In this document: positions 2,611-54,420 of the stretch, in pieces | How the letters are laid out: each line of letters starts with the position of its first letter | Numbering within the stretch: position 1 is the stretch's first letter | Source: a virus | Taxonomy: Duplodnaviria; Heunggongvirae; Uroviricota; Caudoviricetes | Virus record (IMG/VR): IMGVR_UViG_2571042690_000019 | DNA: 64,000 nucleotides | Direction: 5' to 3' (one strand) | Program-made: the position numbers and the translations under genes | Notes under the pieces: model-generated | Told to the model about the DNA's origin: nothing | Databases searched by the model: none | What the model saw: the letters and a program-made list of their open reading frames with translations, nothing else

Positions 2611-3493
2611 CGGCCTCCACTAGCGAAGTGAACATCGCGGATAATTCAGCAGTAAACAGGATAAAGTCAGCGTCAAATCGTTGCGCAACATCCTCTCGAT
2701 CAATATCGTCGTTCTGGTCGTACAATTCGTCGCTGAACGACAAAGCCTTGATACTCATATCGTCATTCAGTCTGAAAAATGCACGGTCTTGCCAGTTAAC
2801 CGCAACTGTGGTTGCAACCTTACCAGCTTCTATATGACTCATGATCTCGTCGGATAGCAGGTCCACTTTTTTGCAGCGGACCGCGCCGCCATCATCAAGC
2901 AATGCTTTTAAGGTCGCTTCCTCACCGGCACGGAAACCGTTCGGGAAGCCATTTTTAATCCAGCCAGTGATGGTCAGTTCTAATGGGTCTTTCGGAGAGA
3001 AGGGGACAACGGGCAAGCTGCCAAGCGATTTCCGTAACAAAGCCAGCTGATCCTCTGCTTTTTTAGCACTGCTGGCCTCGACAAAAACCAGATGATTGCT
3101 TCGGTCTATCAGGATTTTAGCTACTGATTTTCTCGTGAAAGCGCGAGGAAGAAGAGAGTGAAGCACTTCATCCTTCAGCGAATCTTTTTCGGTCTTCTTC
3201 AGCTTTCTGTCTTGCTCTTCTTCAAGTTTCAGGATTTTTTTCTGTAACTCTTCTTTGAGTACTTGAGAAGGTAGGATTTTTTCCTCTCGTTTATGCTGCA
3301 TCAGAAGAAAACCCTGGTATTCATGGGTGAGGTTGTCGCCAAGAACGGGGGTCCAACCAGCTTTAGCCATATCCTGAGAACCGCATGGGGTAAACACAAA
3401 CTTGCTAAGGGCTGCATTTACTTCTGCAGTATCCCAGCTAACTTCGCGTGAAAGACGATAGATGAAGATATTTTTGAAAGCGACTGATCTCAT
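2588..3493 (-). CDS. rdgC: recombination-associated protein RdgC homolog
   Basis: 301 aa, alignable by eye along its length to E. coli RdgC ([73 protein letters not shown]...GGEAER). Confidence 0.8.
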
Positions 3494-14224: not shown

Positions 14225-14400
14225 GCAGCCTCCTTTGACTAAGTTAAGGAGCTACCGCGTGAGGTTCCAATCTCAATGGCGGTAGCACTGACTGGGTTGG
14301 AACTACCGGCGTCAAAGGGAACCGGCCTGCCTTTCGGCAGCCCAGCCAGCACTACCATTGATCTCTGAGCTAAACGCTAAGTATGGCTGTGCGATGGCAT
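14225..14400 (-). ncRNA. candidate c4-like antisense RNA / structured leader (immI module 1)
   Basis: Non-coding stretch with nested hairpins (gctaccgc...gcggtagc; ggcctgcc-tttc-ggcagcc) and GGTTCCAA / TTGGAAC complementary heptamers. Coordinates approximate. Confidence 0.25.
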
Positions 14401-14404
14401 GACA

Positions 14405-14427
14405 CAAAAAAAGACGCGTTCGGCGTC
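14405..14427 (-). terminator. rho-independent terminator (minus strand)
   Basis: Minus-strand RNA gacgccgaacgcgtc followed by U7. Confidence 0.5.
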
Positions 14428-14469
14428 TGTGTCGCCTTTGACATTATCCGGGGTTCCAATCCCGGCACC

Positions 14470-14486
14470 CGTTTTTCTAAGGTGCC
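14470..14486. promoter_or_regulatory. C1-operator-like variant upstream of immI module 1
   Basis: ccgtttttctaaggtgc, TTTTCTAAGG variant of the recurring core. Confidence 0.3.
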
Positions 14487-38695: not shown

Positions 38696-38916
38696 AACGT
38701 CTCCTTTTTACACGCGCGACCATCTCTCGGTTAAACCGATAGAGATGTCGAAACTTCGTATTAATTAAGGGTTACAGCCTGAGCGGCTATATGATGAATT
38801 GAAAGGAGTTGTGGCGGTGGTGCCTCCACCTGCCAGGTCAGCCACGCCCGGCGACGACACTTATCAGAACCTCAATGAATGAAAATGGCTTCGTCACGAG
38901 CGCATAGCCGCAATTA

Positions 38917-38965
38917 CCACAACGGAAACGGCGCTCGCGTTAATTAAACGCCTTTTCCTGTTGTG
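38917..38965. repeat. long-stem hairpin element (family copy 1)
   Basis: ccacaacggaaa...tttcctgttgtg arms enclosing a smaller hairpin; flank gcgcatagccgca also recurs at 40081. Confidence 0.4.
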
Positions 38966-39149
38966 CGCCGTACTCTTCCGGCTGTCACACCGAATCGCCA
39001 GGATGGTGAGTCCTCGGTCCGACGATATGAACGGGGCTTGCACATTCCGGCTACCTGGTTTGTTGCCTGAGCTAGGGGAAAAGGTAACCCCTTTAACGTC
39101 ACCAGACCGCTAACGACGCATGTGCCAGACGCCGTGTTACAACCAAATA

Positions 39150-39225
39150 TGGTGGCCCCTACCGGACTTGAACCGGTGACCGTGCGATTATGAGTCGCCA
39201 GCTCTAACCACTGAGCTAAGGGGCC
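39150..39225 (-). tRNA. tRNA with CAU anticodon (Ile2-lysidine type, or Met)
   Basis: Minus-strand GGCCCCTTAGCTCAGTGGTTAGAGCTGGCGACTCATAATCGC...GGTTCAAGTCCGGTAGGGGCCACCA; close to E. coli ileX from memory. Confidence 0.85.
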
Positions 39226-39236
39226 AATTAGTTTTT

Positions 39237-39350
39237 ATTTTCGACGCCTGAGATTCTTCGCTACTTGTTCTACTCCGTATACGATCACAAGCAGAAATAG
39301 CAAAGACCATCCAGGGTTCTTATCAATATACGTCCAAAAATCCATCATGA
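39237..39350 (-). CDS. tiny membrane peptide (about 37 aa)
   Basis: MMDFWTYIDKNPGWSLLFLLVIVYGVEQVAKNLRRRK; below ORF-track cutoff. Confidence 0.25.
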
Positions 39351-39509
39351 GTTCCTGAACGCAGCTTTAATAATCGGCAATAGCAATACCACAGCTACTG
39401 AAACCAGTGCCCCATCAGCCAACACCGACATCACTTTGCTGGTGAAATCCACCAGCACGGACAAAACGAGAAAACCAATGGCGCACGCAATACGCGCCTT
39501 GCCAATCAT
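39346..39509 (-). CDS. small membrane peptide (54 aa)
   Basis: MIGKARIACAIGFLVLSVLVDFTSKVMSVLADGALVSVAVVLLLPIIKAAFRNS; ATG overlaps the TerB-like stop. Confidence 0.3.
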
Positions 39510-39943
39510 TACAGATAATCTTCCACACGAAGGCCCAAACGACGGCCTACTTCTTCCAGTACTTTGTGTTCTGCTGGCTCGATTTCACCGTCCGCTTCTG
39601 CAATCGTCAGCATGTTAACGAATACTTCTTCCGCTTCTTTTGGATCATTTTTGATATCTTCAATTTCGCGAAGGATATTCATGCGACCAACACGGAAACC
39701 AGCTTCCAGTTGCTCAGTAAAACGGGTGATTGTTGCGGTAATTTCGTTGCCAAAATGACTTAAGCGAGGATTAGAGCGGACAAGCTGATCAAGTTTCGCT
39801 GTTTCTTCCTTTTCGATTTCACCATCTGCGGCAGACACCAACAAACAGCCACCGATAATGGCCTCCATCAGATCGCGATTCTCAACCCTTTTCAGCTCTA
39901 CTTTTGCTGAAGCGACTTTCTTACCGAAAAATTTACCGAACAT
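39509..39943 (-). CDS. TerB-like tellurite-resistance-family protein (TciA-like)
   Basis: 144 aa with the paired-helix acidic pattern of TerB (LLVSAADGEIEKEE...LTIAEADGEIEPAE). Confidence 0.55.
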   Translation of the reverse strand: MFGKFFGKKVASAKVELKRVENRDLMEAIIGGCLLVSAADGEIEKEETAKLDQLVRSNPRLSHFGNEITATITRFTEQLEAGFRVGRMNILREIEDIKNDPKEAEEVFVNMLTIAEADGEIEPAEHKVLEEVGRRLGLRVEDYL

Positions 39944-40098
39944 TGGTTATCCCTCAATAAACATGACGTATTTATTAGGTTGCGGTGCCTGGTGCCTCCA
40001 GGTGACGTTAACCAGTTAACAATTAACGCCGGGATGTTTGACTTAACCACTAAGGAGGATTGTTTTAACTGTTCCGCGTGCGCATAGCCGCATTCACC

Positions 40099-40208
40099 GC
40101 AATGGTAAGAGCACTTGGCTGGCTGGGCGGCGATGACGCCTGTACGCATTTGGTGATCCGGTTCTGCTTCCGGCATTCGCTTAATTAGCCAAATACTCTT
40201 AACGTTGC
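40099..40208. repeat. long-stem hairpin element (family copy 2)
   Basis: Arms gcaatggtaagagcacttgg / ccaaatactcttaacgttgc, about 20 bp with a few mismatches, about 70-nt interior. Confidence 0.4.
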
Positions 40209-40210
40209 AC

Positions 40211-40297
40211 TGGCGGAGAGTAATGGAATCGAACCATCATCGCTTGCGCAATGGGACGGTTTTCAAGACCGTTTGAGCACCATGCTCCCTACTCTCC
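40211..40297 (-). tRNA. non-canonical class-II tRNA-like gene, anticodon UGA (Ser-like)
   Basis: 7-bp acceptor GGAGAGT/ACTCTCC, discriminator G, CCA; anticodon arm ACGGT-CTTGAAA-ACCGT; long variable arm with GCAA tetraloop; T arm TTCGATT; D arm unusually short. Confidence 0.35.
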
Positions 40298-40399
40298 AGT
40301 GATTGTGATGGTCGGTGCTGAACTCCGACACAGGGTTGTAGCAAGCCCCGCAAAGCGCGCACTACTGTAGTTGCGGCACATCAGCCTGTGCATTCACCA

Positions 40400-40488
40400 C
40401 AATGTTGAGAACACTGGTTGTCACGCTGCAACGCAACATTTATTCGTAGATTGGGATATGACCCCGTTACGCCAGTGTTCTCAACGTT
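40400..40488. repeat. long-stem hairpin element (family copy 3)
   Basis: Arms caatgttgagaacactgg / ccagtgttctcaacgtt, 17 bp; interior about 54 nt. Confidence 0.4.
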
Positions 40489-40630
40489 ATAGTGCCGGTT
40501 ACGGTTCCGGCCAGGCCTCTTCCTCAACGGGGTGTTCTCCATACGGACTACCGTTTATTGGTCGTTCCTGCGGTTTATGTTGTGAAGCCAGATGCTTATC
40601 TTCTGGTTGCTTCAAAGAGCTGCACTTCAT

Positions 40631-40698
40631 CACAACGGTAAGAGCACTCGATGCATTTAAGCCAAGCCCCATAAGGGAGAATGCCCTTACCTGTTGTG
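40631..40698. repeat. long-stem hairpin element (family copy 4)
   Basis: Arms cacaacggtaagagca / tgcccttacctgttgtg with a one-base bulge. Confidence 0.4.
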
Positions 40699-40826
40699 TT
40701 GTGATGACCGGTGCTGATCTCCGGCTTGCGGTTATTTCAGACTCTCACGGGCGTTTAATTGCCCCGCCGAACAGCTCTTTTCCGCAATAGCTGCAATGTC
40801 TTTCGCGCATCAGCCTGCGCATTCAT

Positions 40827-40913
40827 CACAACGGTAAGGGTACTTCGTAGGGATTCGAACCCTCTGCCAAGCTCGGCGATCTCCGACGTCGCAAAATACC
40901 CTTACCTGTTGTG
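40827..40913. repeat. long-stem hairpin / tRNA-like remnant (family copy 5)
   Basis: Arms cacaacggtaagggta / tacccttacctgttgtg; interior has a T-arm-like gggattcgaaccc and a D-arm-like hairpin but no anticodon arm; abuts tRNA-Thr. Confidence 0.4.
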
Positions 40914-40914
40914 C

Positions 40915-40990
40915 TGGTGCCGATTAACGGACTCGAACCGCTGACATCCTGCTTACAAGGCAGGCGCTCTACCAACTGAGCTAAACCGGC
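40915..40990 (-). tRNA. tRNA-Thr (anticodon UGU)
   Basis: Minus-strand GCCGGTTTAGCTCAGTTGGTAGAGCGCCTGCCTTGTAAGCAGG...GGTTCGAGTCCGTTAATCGGCACCA. Confidence 0.9.
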
Positions 40991-40992
40991 AT

Positions 40993-41068
40993 TGGCGATG
41001 GTGGATGGATTTGAACCATCGACCCGTTGATTAACAGTCAACCGCTCTAACCGCTGAGCTACACCATC
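40993..41068 (-). tRNA. tRNA-Asn (anticodon GUU)
   Basis: Minus-strand GATGGTGTAGCTCAGCGGTTAGAGCGGTTGACTGTTAATCAAC...GGTTCAAATCCATCCACCATCGCCA. Confidence 0.9.
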
Positions 41069-41267
41069 ACTTGCCGGGTACGTCTCCGGCGAGGGCTTCC
41101 ACCTCCGTATGCTTTTCGGCGCACCGCGCCCTGGGTGCAATTCGGTAACAGGGGATGCACAACCCTGGCTTCCAGCGTGATTAGCGCCTTCAGCATGACG
41201 GGATATACCCGTAGTAGGATGTTATCCCAGAAAGCCATTAACCAATGGCTGTTACGCGGGAGGGACG

Positions 41268-41344
41268 TAACAGGTAAGGGCGCTGACCAGAAAGACCTGA
41301 CCCTTCTCATTCATCTGGTTAATCACACCAGCGCCCTTGCCTGT
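41268..41344. repeat. long-stem hairpin element (family copy 6)
   Basis: Arms aacaggtaagggcgctg / cagcgcccttgcctgtt, 17 bp with one mismatch. Confidence 0.4.
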
Positions 41345-41524
41345 TATGCCTCCCCGTTCCCTAATACACAGACGGGGACACTCTGCGGTCGATTTTTTGA
41401 CGGGGGACGACTCATACCCCGTGGCGTCAGGCTTCTTAGGCCGCTACCATCATCAGATCATCGTTTGCATTTACTTTAATGGTCGGGTTCTAAACCGCCG
41501 CAAAGTCGCTAACCATGACGAAAA

Positions 41525-41552
41525 CCCTAAAAAAGCCCACCCGAAGATGGGC
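41525..41552 (-). terminator. rho-independent terminator (minus strand)
   Basis: Minus-strand RNA gcccatcttcgggtgggc followed by U6. Confidence 0.4.
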
Positions 41553-41571
41553 AAATACGCTACATCTCACA

Positions 41572-41650
41572 CAAGAAAGAAGCCGACTGCCTGAGCTGGA
41601 TTCACTTTCAAATGCCCGCTGAAAGGGATCACAAGTCGGCTTCTTTCTTG
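41572..41650. other. perfect 17-bp-stem hairpin in non-coding region
   Basis: caagaaagaagccgact ... agtcggcttctttcttg with a 45-nt loop. Confidence 0.5.
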
Positions 41651-42132
41651 ATGCGGCACTCTCTCCGCCCGTCACCGCTCTGTCTCGGTTGTCGCGTTTG
41701 CCACGCCAGCCGTAACGAGGTTTAAAGTCTTTGCACGTTTCCATCACTCGACTGCCGTCTGTGGCTGTTCGTTGCAGCGGGGGTGCCTCCCCCTGGGGAT
41801 ATCCCCGGCCTTACCCCATTCTTTCAAGACACAATGCAAGGCCACATCCGCATAGGTGCATTACCGCAACATTAAGGAGACTCAGGGCAAAAGGTAACCG
41901 CCACAAAAATCCCTATGCCTCCTTAATGTTGAAGATGTGCATTGATGATTAGATGCAGCATGTACCGTTACTCTCTGCCGGACCATCATCAATGAACACC
42001 TTAAAAAGACCTTCCGTGGCTCAACATGTATTGTCGTTTACTCCGCAAAGTGCTCTCTCTGAAACCACTTTCCGCACTAAACCTGTTGAACTTTGGTCTG
42101 CTCGGTGCCAAAGCGTGCTCTTGGTTTACTAT

Positions 42133-42153: not shown

Positions 42154-42288
42154 GTTAATTGCTGGTGGGCATACAATAACCAATAAGTGACTATCAAGCC
42201 CAGCAAGCGAAACGTGGGTACCGCCCACCAGCAAGGAAAATTCTATGTTAAGTCATCTTCACAATCAATACATTCAAATTGTGATTTT

Positions 42289-54139: not shown

Positions 54140-54420
54140 ACGGCCTCACTAACAGGTTTAACAACCTGCTACCCGCTGTCAAACAGGTGGCAGGACGTGA
54201 CAGGGTTGACAGACTGGCGTTAGTGAAACCAGCAGGCCGAAGCCTCCCCATCACGCCCCACCATAATTCGGGCGTAACGTGGTTTACGGACACAAAAATA
54301 CCGCAATATCGGAAATCTGCGGTTGTCCGCACTAACATTCAGGCTGTCAAACCTGGTCGCAGAATTTGCTACGACGGCATGAATATAAGCCTGAAAACAT
54401 GGAAGATCAACTAAAAATTT
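54140..54420 (-). ncRNA. candidate c4-like antisense RNA / structured leader (immI module 2)
   Basis: Non-coding stretch with TTGACAG and complementary CTGTCAA heptamers at 54177, 54206 and 54344. Coordinates approximate. Confidence 0.25.

What the first reader, a model, noticed from the sequence alone, without database searches (positions are those of the whole stretch)
38900..41350. Family of long-stem hairpin repeats interleaved with the tRNA genes
Six elements (about 38917, 40099, 40400, 40631, 40827, 41268) each form a 12-20 bp stem around a 45-75 nt interior, and several share the arm sequence cacaacggtaag(a/g)g ... cccttacctgttgtg. Copy 5 has a T-arm-like gggattcgaaccc and a D-arm-like hairpin but no anticodon arm, and it abuts tRNA-Thr. 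They are irregularly spaced (not CRISPR) and non-coding. They could be tRNA-derived small RNAs, processing or termination signals for the tRNA transcript, or protein-binding sites.
Basis: seen in the sequence. Interest (0 to 1): 0.7.

Follow-up and report, generated by a model that had tools for sequence, protein, structure and literature searches.

The report
Conserved phage RNA hairpins among tRNAs
The six hairpins are real, evolutionarily maintained RNA structures that punctuate a non-coding operon of tRNAs and a previously unannotated tmRNA-like RNA, and the same modules recur in hundreds of unrelated enterobacterial phages, but what they do has not been shown.

Summary
All six hairpins exist at the stated places in a D6/P1-like phage-plasmid, on the transcribed (minus) strand of the P1 'ban' operon. 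At least two more lie upstream.

They are selected RNA structures. Fifteen distinct copies from eleven phages keep 95% of stem positions paired (84% in shuffles, 0/500), and 8 of 19 pairs show compensatory changes. A bulged A, a U.U mismatch and a U.G wobble are conserved, and G.U pairs lengthen the stems only on the transcribed strand.

They are not tRNAs, CRISPR repeats, attC sites or any Rfam family, and nothing is annotated there.

They are one module of a larger conserved array: long hairpin, then a cloverleaf-like unit (two small covarying hairpins closed by GUUGUGGUG/CACCACAAC), then a tRNA or another hairpin.

Hairpin 6 is the 3' hairpin of a tmRNA-like RNA. That RNA has a 10-codon tag frame (ANDDLMMVAA), a stop codon in a hairpin loop and two covarying pseudoknots. 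No canonical tRNA-like domain was found. Related sequence occurs in 802 phage records.

My best guess (about 0.4) is that the hairpins are processing and end-protecting stems of this stable-RNA operon. Function is inferred, not shown.

The parts
38918..38965 (-). Long hairpin el1 (CACAACAGGAAAAGG...CCGUUUCCGUUGUG). It lies downstream of tRNA-Met/Ile(CAU) and a 160-nt conserved element.
   Evidence: Fold z -2.25; stem drawn; coordinates.
40097..40210 (-). Long hairpin el2. It starts directly after the CCA of tRNA-Ser(UGA).
   Evidence: (z -2.8).
40395..40494 (-). Long hairpin el3, with a 23-bp stem and a three-way junction inside.
   Evidence: Inverted repeat I2; z -5.85; orthologs in P1, P7, D6, RCS47 and CMS-2020a.
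40631..40698 (-). Long hairpin el4 with conserved interior CUCCCUUAUGGGGCUUGGCUUAAAUGCAUCGAG.
   Evidence: z -3.65. The same interior sits inside a completely different outer stem in the FelixO1-like contig L101 and in lambdoid L032/L034.
40827..40913 (-). Long hairpin el5 with a tRNA-like interior (small hairpin plus T-arm GAGGGUUCGAAUCCCUA). It abuts tRNA-Thr.
   Evidence: z -5.0. The same interior lies immediately 5' of the tmRNA-like RNA in L107, L044 and L052.
41259..41353 (-). Long hairpin el6, the 3'-terminal hairpin of the tmRNA-like RNA. It starts right after pseudoknot b.
   Evidence: I1; z -4.5; position after PKb in all 18 aligned phages. Compensatory U-A to C-G change between the window and P1.
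41867..41931 (-).
40698..40832 (-). Cloverleaf-like unit U1 after el5. Closing helix GUUGUGAUG (40824-40832) with CAUCACAAC (40698-40706); hpB at 40805-40820; hpA at 40707-40725.
   Evidence: Coordinates; fold; closing-helix and hpA covariation.
40302..40403 (-). Cloverleaf-like unit U2 after el3. Closing helix AUUGUGGUG/CAUCACAAU; hpB at 40376-40391; hpA at 40311-40329. It ends 4 nt before tRNA-Ser.
40579..40636 (-). Reduced unit after el4: GUUGUGAUGAAG...CUUCACAAC enclosing an hpA-type hairpin CCAGA-AGAUAAGCA-UCUGG (40588-40606).
41351..41527 (-). tmRNA-like RNA body. It comprises GGGUUUUCGUC (41517-41527), GCGACUUUGCGG (41498-41509), the tag frame GCA...UAA = ANDDLMMVAA* (41436-41468), a stop-codon hairpin (41423-41448), pseudoknot a (41388-41422) and pseudoknot b (41351-41387).
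   Evidence: Weak Rfam tmRNA-family hits; tag frames; covariation; coordinates.
40211..40297 (-). tRNA-Ser(UGA).
   Evidence: ARAGORN.
40915..41068 (-). tRNA-Thr(UGU) at 40915-40990 and tRNA-Asn(GUU) at 40993-41068.
   Evidence: ARAGORN and Rfam.
39150..39225 (-). tRNA with CAU anticodon. The P1 record annotates the ortholog as tRNA-Ile2.
41073..41090 (-). hpA-like hairpin GCCGGAGACGUACCCGGC, 4 nt upstream of tRNA-Asn.

Best explanation
The hairpins are RNA-level structural modules of a long, mostly non-coding early transcript. In P1 this is the C1-repressed ban operon. The transcript carries a tmRNA-like RNA, three or four tRNAs and tRNA-like cloverleaf units.

Each module is a stem of about 20 bp with a conserved base: CACAAC-(bulged A)-GGUAAGRGCAUU paired with AGUGCUCUUWCC-GUUGUG. 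The stem closes a variable interior.

I propose that these stems act as punctuation. In this model they are cut by a double-strand-specific endonuclease, most plausibly host RNase III, and/or they block 3' exonucleases. That would separate the neighbouring stable RNAs (the tmRNA-like RNA ending in el6, and tRNAs whose CCA abuts el2 and el5) and give them defined, protected ends. The adjoining cloverleaf units would provide RNase P-type cleavage sites.

Shown: the structures, their strand, their conservation and their modular order. Inferred: transcription as one precursor (taken from the P1 annotation), every cleavage step and the enzyme.
For: (1) The stems are maintained by selection. Alignment A2 has 95.1% of cells paired against 84.0 +/- 1.2 in shuffles (0/500), 8 of 19 pairs changed on both sides, a covariation score of 0.354 against 0.122, and slid controls of 37-59%. 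Own arms pair far better than foreign arms: 16.7 against 8.3 over 39 hairpins.

(2) The evidence points to RNA and to the minus strand. G.U pairs lengthen the stems only on that strand. A U.G wobble is kept in 12 of 15 copies and a U.U mismatch in 9 of 15.

(3) The positions fit punctuation. el5 and el2 begin 1-2 nt after a tRNA CCA. el6 follows the last pseudoknot of the tmRNA-like RNA in every phage aligned. In FelixO1-like contigs that hairpin is followed within about 4-6 nt by a tRNA (L127) or a tRNA-like sequence (L101), so RNase P cleavage there would leave it as the 3' end.

(4) A stem of about 20-23 bp with an internal loop is the shape I recall for known RNase III sites (see Closest known systems).

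(5) The same modules occur downstream of early or late promoters in lambdoid, P22-like, siphovirus, Ackermannviridae and phage-plasmid genomes. With or without tRNAs, they are always on the transcribed strand.

(6) No coding signal: no Pfam hit to any overlapping ORF, and no annotation in D6, P7 or 661 E. coli genomes.
Against: There are no expression or cleavage data of any kind.

RNase III needs no particular sequence. Yet the stem base and its non-canonical features are conserved almost to the nucleotide across unrelated phages. That suggests a sequence-specific partner, or recent spread of a mobile module.

The GUUGUG strand can pair either with the upstream CACAAC or with the CACAAC after hpA. 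At one position (A in AUUGUG of el3) the covariation favours the downstream partner, so the lowest 6 bp of the hairpin may not be its working state.

Recurrent, conserved interiors (el4 and el5 types) suggest the cargo matters and not only the stem.

CRISPRi knock-down at targets in this region of P1, including trnT, plp, upl, tciABC, trnI and ban, gave no plaque defect (PMC10695390).
Confidence: 0.4

Rival explanations
1. The hairpins are scaffolds that deliver functional small RNAs. In this reading the conserved stem is only a handle and the variable interior is the active part. Some interiors are tRNA-like, for instance decoys or substrates for tRNA-binding or tRNA-cleaving host factors.
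For: Interiors fall into a few recurrent, conserved types shared by distant phages. The el4 type is kept in a FelixO1-like contig while the outer stem is entirely replaced. The el5 type has a T-arm. The KP591P1 interior scores 23 bits against tRNA-Sec. The elements are associated with phage tRNA clusters.
Against: Many interiors show no conservation, and their length ranges from 10 to about 100 nt. No target, partner protein or seed is identifiable. The stem base is more conserved than most interiors.
Confidence: 0.22
2. The hairpins are structural domains of a tmRNA-derived RNA, equivalent to the long helix 2 capped by a degenerate tRNA-like domain. The copies between the tRNAs would be duplicates. 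The system would then work in, or interfere with, ribosome rescue.
For: el6 follows the two pseudoknots exactly where helix 2 and the T-arm follow in tmRNA. In L107, L044 and L052 an el5-type hairpin with a T-arm lies directly 5' of GUUUUCGUC. The hpA hairpin plus CACCACAAC(ACCA) aligns with the ssrA T-arm plus CAGCUCCACCA.
Against: No G3:U70, no conserved NCCA end and no 5' acceptor strand were found in a scan of all MLD-bearing loci then held. There is no spare T-arm plus CCA in the window. ARAGORN calls no tmRNA. T-arms are absent from most copies, including el6. The topology (tRNA-like unit attached by its 5' end) does not fit entry into the ribosomal A site.
Confidence: 0.2
3. This is a DNA-level feature. 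The CACAAC/GTTGTG inverted repeats would be recombination linkers or remnants of a small mobile element that shuffles tRNA cassettes, with no RNA function.
For: Sequence similarity between unrelated phages breaks at the stem borders. tRNA genes appear inserted next to CACAAC motifs: tRNA-Ser sits between CAUCACAAU and GUGCAAC. Content is mosaic between D6, P1, P7, RCS47 and CMS-2020a.
Against: Compensatory changes, conserved G.U/U.G wobbles and strand asymmetry are not expected for a DNA site. No transposase or recombinase is associated. The motif does not fit the attC core GTTRRRY (read directly from the sequence).
Confidence: 0.1

Closest known systems
RNase III processing stems of polycistronic stable-RNA and phage transcripts (T7 early-region R sites, rRNA operon stems, the RNase III step in T4 tRNA-cluster processing, dicF in the Qin dicB operon). 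This comparison rests on my own knowledge, not on a test here.
   Same: Stems of about 20 bp with an internal loop or bulge, lying between mature RNAs of one precursor. Several copies per operon share sequence.
   Different: Cleavage is untested. The stem base is conserved in sequence across unrelated phage families. The interiors are large and in part tRNA-like. The 3' strand has an alternative partner.
tmRNA (ssrA; Rfam RF00023, RF01850, RF04321), for the RNA that ends in hairpin 6
   Same: AUAAAU|GCA AAC GA resume context. A 10-codon tag ending in hydrophobic-A-A or A-V-A. The stop codon sits in a hairpin loop. H-type pseudoknots follow. E. coli ssrA encodes ANDENYALAA.
   Different: Only 11-23 bits against gathering scores of 47-84. 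No acceptor stem with G3:U70 and no conserved CCA end. ARAGORN is negative. There are two pseudoknots after the tag instead of three, and no clear PK1.
tRNA punctuation of polycistronic transcripts (tRNA or tRNA-like structures as RNase P/Z signals, as in mitochondria or MALAT1-mascRNA). From my own knowledge.
   Same: tRNAs, cloverleaf-like units and hairpins alternate without spacers along one transcript.
   Different: The cloverleaf units lack canonical D and T loops and are not recognised by tRNA models. No RNase P data exist.
Bacterial Y RNA-like YrlA (RF02553)
   Same: A long stem formed by the two ends, plus a tRNA-like module with a T-arm and no anticodon arm (el5).
   Different: The Rfam model does not match the hairpins. 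Its only hit (25.6 bits, gathering score 69) spans the two real tRNAs. Most copies have no T-arm.
STnc100 / PasD prophage sRNAs (RF02076), for the small AGGCA-loop hairpins nearby
   Same: Window 39981-40101 scores 40.1 bits. The T765 locus scores 48.8 bits, above the gathering score.
   Different: This is a different element from the long hairpins and only a neighbour in the same operon.

Membership tests
tRNA | Cloverleaf recognised by ARAGORN or Rfam RF00005 | tested here: not met
   Only the four real tRNAs are called. None of the hairpins or cloverleaf units is called.
CRISPR array | Direct repeats of constant length at regular spacing | tested here: not met
   The arms are inverted, not direct. 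Spacing is 196-1180 nt.
Integron attC | R''/R' cores RYYYAAC ... GTTRRRY | tested here: not met
   The outer core is CACAAC...GTTGTG, and position 5 of the GTTRRRY-equivalent is T.
Intrinsic terminator | GC-rich hairpin followed by a U-tract | tested here: not met
   On the transcribed strand none of the six hairpins is followed by a U-tract. The scan's only hit inside one of them is a plus-strand sub-hairpin within el4. The clear terminator-like site on the transcribed strand is 41535-41552, upstream of the tmRNA-like RNA.
YrlA / Y RNA-like | Match to RF02553 at the gathering score | tested here: not met
   25.6 bits against a gathering score of 69, and the match lies over tRNA-Thr and tRNA-Asn, not over a hairpin.
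RNase III processing site | About two turns of dsRNA on the transcribed strand between mature RNAs | tested here: met
   19-24 pairs on the minus strand; positions next to tRNAs and the tmRNA-like RNA.
RNase III processing site | Cleavage by RNase III in vivo or in vitro | not testable with these tools
   No transcript or enzymatic data are available.
tmRNA (module ending in el6) | Resume codon plus short tag frame ending in a stop | tested here: met
   GCA AAC GAU ... GCC UAA = ANDDLMMVAA. Homologous units elsewhere keep a 10-codon frame with 12 different tags and with UAA, UAG or UGA as the stop.
tmRNA (module ending in el6) | Pseudoknots flanking the tag, supported by covariation | tested here: met
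   Two H-type pseudoknots and the stop-codon hairpin: 84.3% paired against 71.6% (0/500), 65 double-change cells against 21.
tmRNA (module ending in el6) | tRNA-like domain: acceptor stem with G3:U70, T-arm, 3' CCA | tested here: not met
   No consistent candidate in a scan of all MLD-bearing loci then held. No spare T-arm plus CCA in the window. ARAGORN is negative.
tmRNA (module ending in el6) | Rfam gathering score | tested here: not met
   11-23 bits against 47-84.
Protein-coding gene (P1 plp/upl-type ORFs on the + strand) | Conserved ORF with a family match | tested here: not met
   The 139-aa ORF 40371-40790 has no Pfam or PHROG hit. It is not annotated in D6 or P7. The P1 plp ORF overlaps el3, el5 and tRNA-Thr in antisense.

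The most novel reading that the evidence does not exclude
The hairpins and the cloverleaf units are the helical and tRNA-like parts of a previously unrecognised tmRNA-derived RNA system. It is carried by P1-like, lambdoid, P22-like, FelixO1-like, N4-like, Ackermannviridae and siphovirus phages of enterobacteria. It would be a split or rearranged tmRNA whose tag template (ANDDLMMVAA, ANEEMYLAVA and others) is used on, or blocks, stalled host ribosomes during infection.
Probability: 0.2. Interest if true: 0.9.

Novelty: new variant of a known kind. Interest (0 to 1): 0.62.

Why it matters
P1 is one of the best-studied phages. Even so, about 2.5 kb of its ban-operon leader consists of conserved structured RNA that current records either leave blank or annotate as doubtful ORFs (upl, plp).

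The same modules appear across hundreds of phage genomes of very different types. They are therefore likely to answer a common need, such as maturation of phage tRNAs or dealing with host tRNA or ribosome-rescue biology.

Defining the family would improve phage annotation. It would give Rfam several new models: the long hairpin, hpA, hpB and the tmRNA-like RNA.

If the tmRNA-like RNA is active, it would open a new case of viral interference with translation quality control.

Tried and rejected
- **Rfam.** Gathering and E<=10 scans of the region and of three related loci found no family for the hairpins.
- **Ribozymes.** No hammerhead, twister or other ribozyme model appeared even at E<=10.
- **Canonical tmRNA.** I looked for a 5' acceptor strand near GUUUUCG with a complementary 7-mer plus NCCA downstream. 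The only hits were spurious ones inside tRNA-Asn.
- **T-arm plus CCA elsewhere in the window.** None besides the four tRNAs.
- **Single MAFFT alignment of all 39 arm pairs.** It mixed the bulged and unbulged registers and was unusable for pair counts. I used the 15 bulged-class copies instead and a pairing-score matrix for all 39.
- **First stem-tracing script.** It broke at the conserved U.U mismatch.
- **Literature.** Ten searches, including searches for the literal sequences, found nothing on these elements. The P1 genome paper (PMC523184) is not held.
- **Lambda nut/boxA idea.** GCUCUUA in the 3' arm resembles boxA, but it lies inside a duplex. I did not pursue it.
- **U-unit thermodynamics.** The folds are not significant on their own (z -1.2 and -1.6). 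Support for them comes from covariation.
Full report
**Identity of the window.** The region is 97.7% identical to Escherichia phage D6, a P1-like phage-plasmid. It is 92-94% identical over shared parts to P1 and P7. A 311-nt piece is 100% identical to E. coli plasmids of about 90 kb. In the P1 record the homologous stretch lies between the C1-controlled promoter Pban and the ban gene. The order there is dicF-like region, tRNA-Asn, tRNA-Thr, (upl and plp on the other strand), tciA, tciB, tciC, tRNA-Ile, all on one strand. In the window all four tRNAs are on the minus strand: CAU 39150-39225, Ser 40211-40297, Thr 40915-40990 and Asn 40993-41068. I therefore read everything on the minus strand.

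The six hairpins are at 38918-38965, 40097-40210, 40395-40494, 40631-40698, 40827-40913 and 41259-41353.
- Each folds as a long stem, with energies 2.3-5.9 sd below dinucleotide shuffles.
- The arm motif is over-represented in the window: 17 matches against 6.4 +/- 2.5, with 0 of 100 shuffles reaching 17.
- A window-wide scan for long-range stems finds them concentrated between 40.4 and 42.2 kb. It adds two more, at 41572-41650 and 41867-41931.
- el5 and el2 begin 1-2 nt after the CCA of tRNA-Thr and tRNA-Ser.
- No hairpin is called by ARAGORN or by any Rfam model, even at E<=10.
- Overlapping ORFs have no Pfam match. D6 and P7 annotate nothing there. P1's plp ORF lies antisense over el3, el5 and tRNA-Thr.

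**They are selected RNA structures.** On the minus strand G.U pairs extend the stems to 19-24 pairs, against 15-18 on the plus strand. I collected 39 different copies from the window and from 20 other phage or viral-contig loci. A hairpin's own 3' arm pairs much better with its 5' arm than foreign arms do: mean score 16.7 against 8.3.

For the 15 distinct copies of the commonest register (alignment A2):
- 95.1% of cells are paired, against 84.0 +/- 1.2 after shuffling partners (0/500).
- 8 of 19 pairs change on both sides.
- The covariation score is 0.354 against 0.122.
- Sliding the partner by 1-3 columns drops pairing to 37-59%.

Three irregular features are conserved: a bulged A after CACAAC, a U.U mismatch (9 of 15) and a U.G wobble in GCAUU/AGUGC (12 of 15). 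These point to recognition of the RNA, not of a DNA site.

**The hairpin is one module of a larger repeated array.** On the transcribed strand the order is as follows.
- Long hairpin.
- GUGAAUG.
- Small hairpin hpB (GCRCA-GGCUGA-UGYGC).
- Variable spacer.
- Small hairpin hpA (5-bp stem, 9-nt loop AGAUCAGCA).
- CAYCACAAY.
- Then a tRNA or the next long hairpin.

The hpA stems covary (GCCGG/CCGGC, GUCGG/CCGAC, CCAGA/UCUGG) while the loop is kept. The 9-mer after hpA is complementary to the end of the preceding hairpin's 3' arm, and this pairing covaries too. Variants are GUUGUGGUG/CACCACAAC, GUUGUGAUG/CAUCACAAC, AUUGUGGUG/CAUCACAAU and GUUGUGGUU/AACCACAAC. The closed units fold as four-arm cloverleaves, with hpA abutting the closing helix as a T-arm abuts an acceptor stem. 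Their thermodynamic z-scores alone are weak. The GUUGUG strand therefore has two possible partners, and the lowest 6 bp of each long hairpin may be an alternative state.

**Distribution.**
- el3 and el5 with their flanks occur in P1, P7, D6, RCS47, SJ46, Ro157c2YLVW and the 108-kb phage-plasmids Cyrano and CMS-2020a.
- The 3' arm plus hpB alone matches 124 phage records. These include Klebsiella siphoviruses, Ackermannviridae, and P22-like and lambdoid phages.
- In mEp460 and Stx2 phages the modules lie upstream of the repressor gene, where I infer PL transcription starts.
- In HK620 they lie between qut/tR' and the holin gene.
- In KP591P1 they lie behind their own promoter and in front of three tRNAs.
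- In phage T765 they lie inside more than 3 kb without ORFs.

Interiors behave like cassettes. The el4 interior is kept in a FelixO1-like contig inside a completely different stem. The el5 interior, which has a T-arm, recurs in prophage-type contigs.

**Hairpin 6 belongs to a tmRNA-like RNA.** The sequence upstream of el6 gave weak but repeated hits to tmRNA, beta-tmRNA and permuted-tmRNA models at the same place in several phages. It reads ...AAAGUAAAU|GCA AAC GAU GAU CUG AUG AUG GUA GCG GCC UAA, which encodes ANDDLMMVAA. E. coli ssrA encodes ANDENYALAA.
- Homologous units keep a 10-codon frame with twelve different tags, for example ANEEMYLAVA, ANDEQFLAVA, ANDNTFLAVA and ANDDVVLMAA. The stop is UAA, UAG or UGA.
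- The stop lies in a hairpin loop, and two H-type pseudoknots follow.
- On 18 distinct sequences this structure has 84.3% of cells paired against 71.6% (0/500), 65 double-change cells against 21, and slid controls of 33-46%.
- The long hairpin follows the second pseudoknot in nearly all of them.
- A blastn search with the KP591P1 unit finds 802 phage records, mostly over this part.
- PGAP annotates nothing over it in 661 E. coli genomes.

I could not find a canonical tRNA-like domain. There is no G3:U70 acceptor, no conserved CCA end, no 5' acceptor strand and no ARAGORN call. hpA plus CACCACAAC(ACCA) does align with the ssrA T-arm and 3' end in KP591P1 and HK620. I therefore call it tmRNA-like, not a tmRNA.

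**Mechanism.** The best-supported reading is that the hairpins punctuate a polycistronic stable-RNA precursor. They have the length and internal-loop shape of RNase III sites. They sit exactly at the borders of the tRNAs and of the tmRNA-like RNA. In the compact FelixO1-type unit the hairpin would be the 3' end left by RNase P cleavage of the adjacent tRNA. I put this at about 0.4.

The near-identical stem base across unrelated phages, the conserved non-canonical pairs and the recurrent interiors leave three other readings open:
- a cargo-delivering scaffold (0.22);
- a structural part of a tmRNA-derived system (0.2);
- a DNA-level recombination linker (0.1), which is weakly supported because covariation and strand asymmetry argue against it.

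CRISPRi knock-down in this region of P1 causes no plaque defect (PMC10695390). Any function is therefore conditional.

**Novelty.** Within what I could search I found no Rfam family, no annotation and no paper covering the hairpins, hpA, hpB or the tmRNA-like RNA. Subscription literature, including the P1 and D6 genome papers, was not available. I file the hairpins as a new variant of a known kind: processing or structural stems in phage stable-RNA operons. The tmRNA-like RNA is the more novel lead.

Noticed in passing
window 41351-41527 (minus strand), continuing into hairpin el6 41259-41353: Unannotated tmRNA-like RNA. It has a resume context, a 10-codon tag frame ANDDLMMVAA*, a stop-codon hairpin and two covarying pseudoknots. 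No canonical tRNA-like domain was found. Related sequence occurs in 802 phage records and 661 E. coli genomes.
   Followed up: partly
window 41779-41793, 39988-40002, 38816-38830 (minus); Rfam hit 39981-40101: Three small hairpins with covarying 5-bp stems and a constant loop: GGGGG-AGGCA-CCCCC, CCUGG-AGGCA-CCAGG and GGUGG-AGGCA-CCACC. Each lies 60-130 nt upstream of an ORF start. The one before tciA is part of an STnc100-like match (40.1 bits, gathering score 47). The T765 locus L012 3497-3711 scores 48.8 bits. The shape is reminiscent of a boxB-type protein-binding hairpin.
   Followed up: partly
window 41529-41650 (minus): 17-bp long hairpin (CAAGAAAGAAGCCGACU...) followed by a strong terminator-like hairpin GCCCAUCUUCGGGUGGGC plus U-tract. 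It corresponds to the region the P1 record labels 'dicF-like'. The terminator sits upstream of the tmRNA-like RNA and the tRNAs, so read-through or a second promoter is needed.
   Followed up: no
window 38986-39148 (minus), between tRNA(CAU) and el1: A 160-nt non-coding element about 90% identical to the sequence lying just upstream of the repressor gene in lambdoid phages mEp460 and Stx2a_1447 (L004 2725-2885), where I infer PL transcripts start. This is the position of nutL/putL in other lambdoid phages.
   Followed up: no
window 14275-14485 and 54183-54388 (minus): Two separate C4 antisense RNA matches (77 and 69 bits). One has an isrK match next to it and the other a c4-a1b1 target match, so the window holds two immunity-type C4 loci.
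   Followed up: no
L002 (P1) 2660-3229, + strand of the locus: The annotated P1 genes upl and plp lie antisense over hairpins el3 and el5 and over tRNA-Thr. The equivalent window ORF (40371-40790) has no family match and is not annotated in D6 or P7. These ORFs are probably not genes.
   Followed up: partly
L012 (Klebsiella phage T765) 950-4108, e.g. 1632-1705: More than 3 kb without annotated ORFs in a virulent Ackermannviridae phage. It is packed with the same modules and holds a tRNA-like sequence with acceptor, D-arm and T-arm but only a 4-bp/3-nt stub in place of the anticodon arm. ARAGORN does not call it.
   Followed up: no
L101 (FelixO1-like viral contig) about 2117-2198: Directly after the tmRNA-like RNA lies a tRNA-like sequence with a T-arm, an acceptor stem CGGGGCG/CGCCUCG (G3:U70), A73 and CCA, and a UCU anticodon-like loop. 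ARAGORN does not call it. Sister contigs have a normal tRNA-Arg(UCU) at that position.
   Followed up: partly
window 40211-40297 (minus): The phage tRNA-Ser(UGA) scores best against the tRNA-Sec model (45.1 bits, just under the gathering score of 47). The D6 record notes that tRNAscan-SE did not assign its amino acid.
   Followed up: no
window 42240-42268 (minus): The only sigma-70-like promoter match on the transcribed strand of the scanned region (TTGATT-17-TAGAAT) lies upstream of all the hairpins. It is a candidate for the D6 equivalent of Pban.
   Followed up: no
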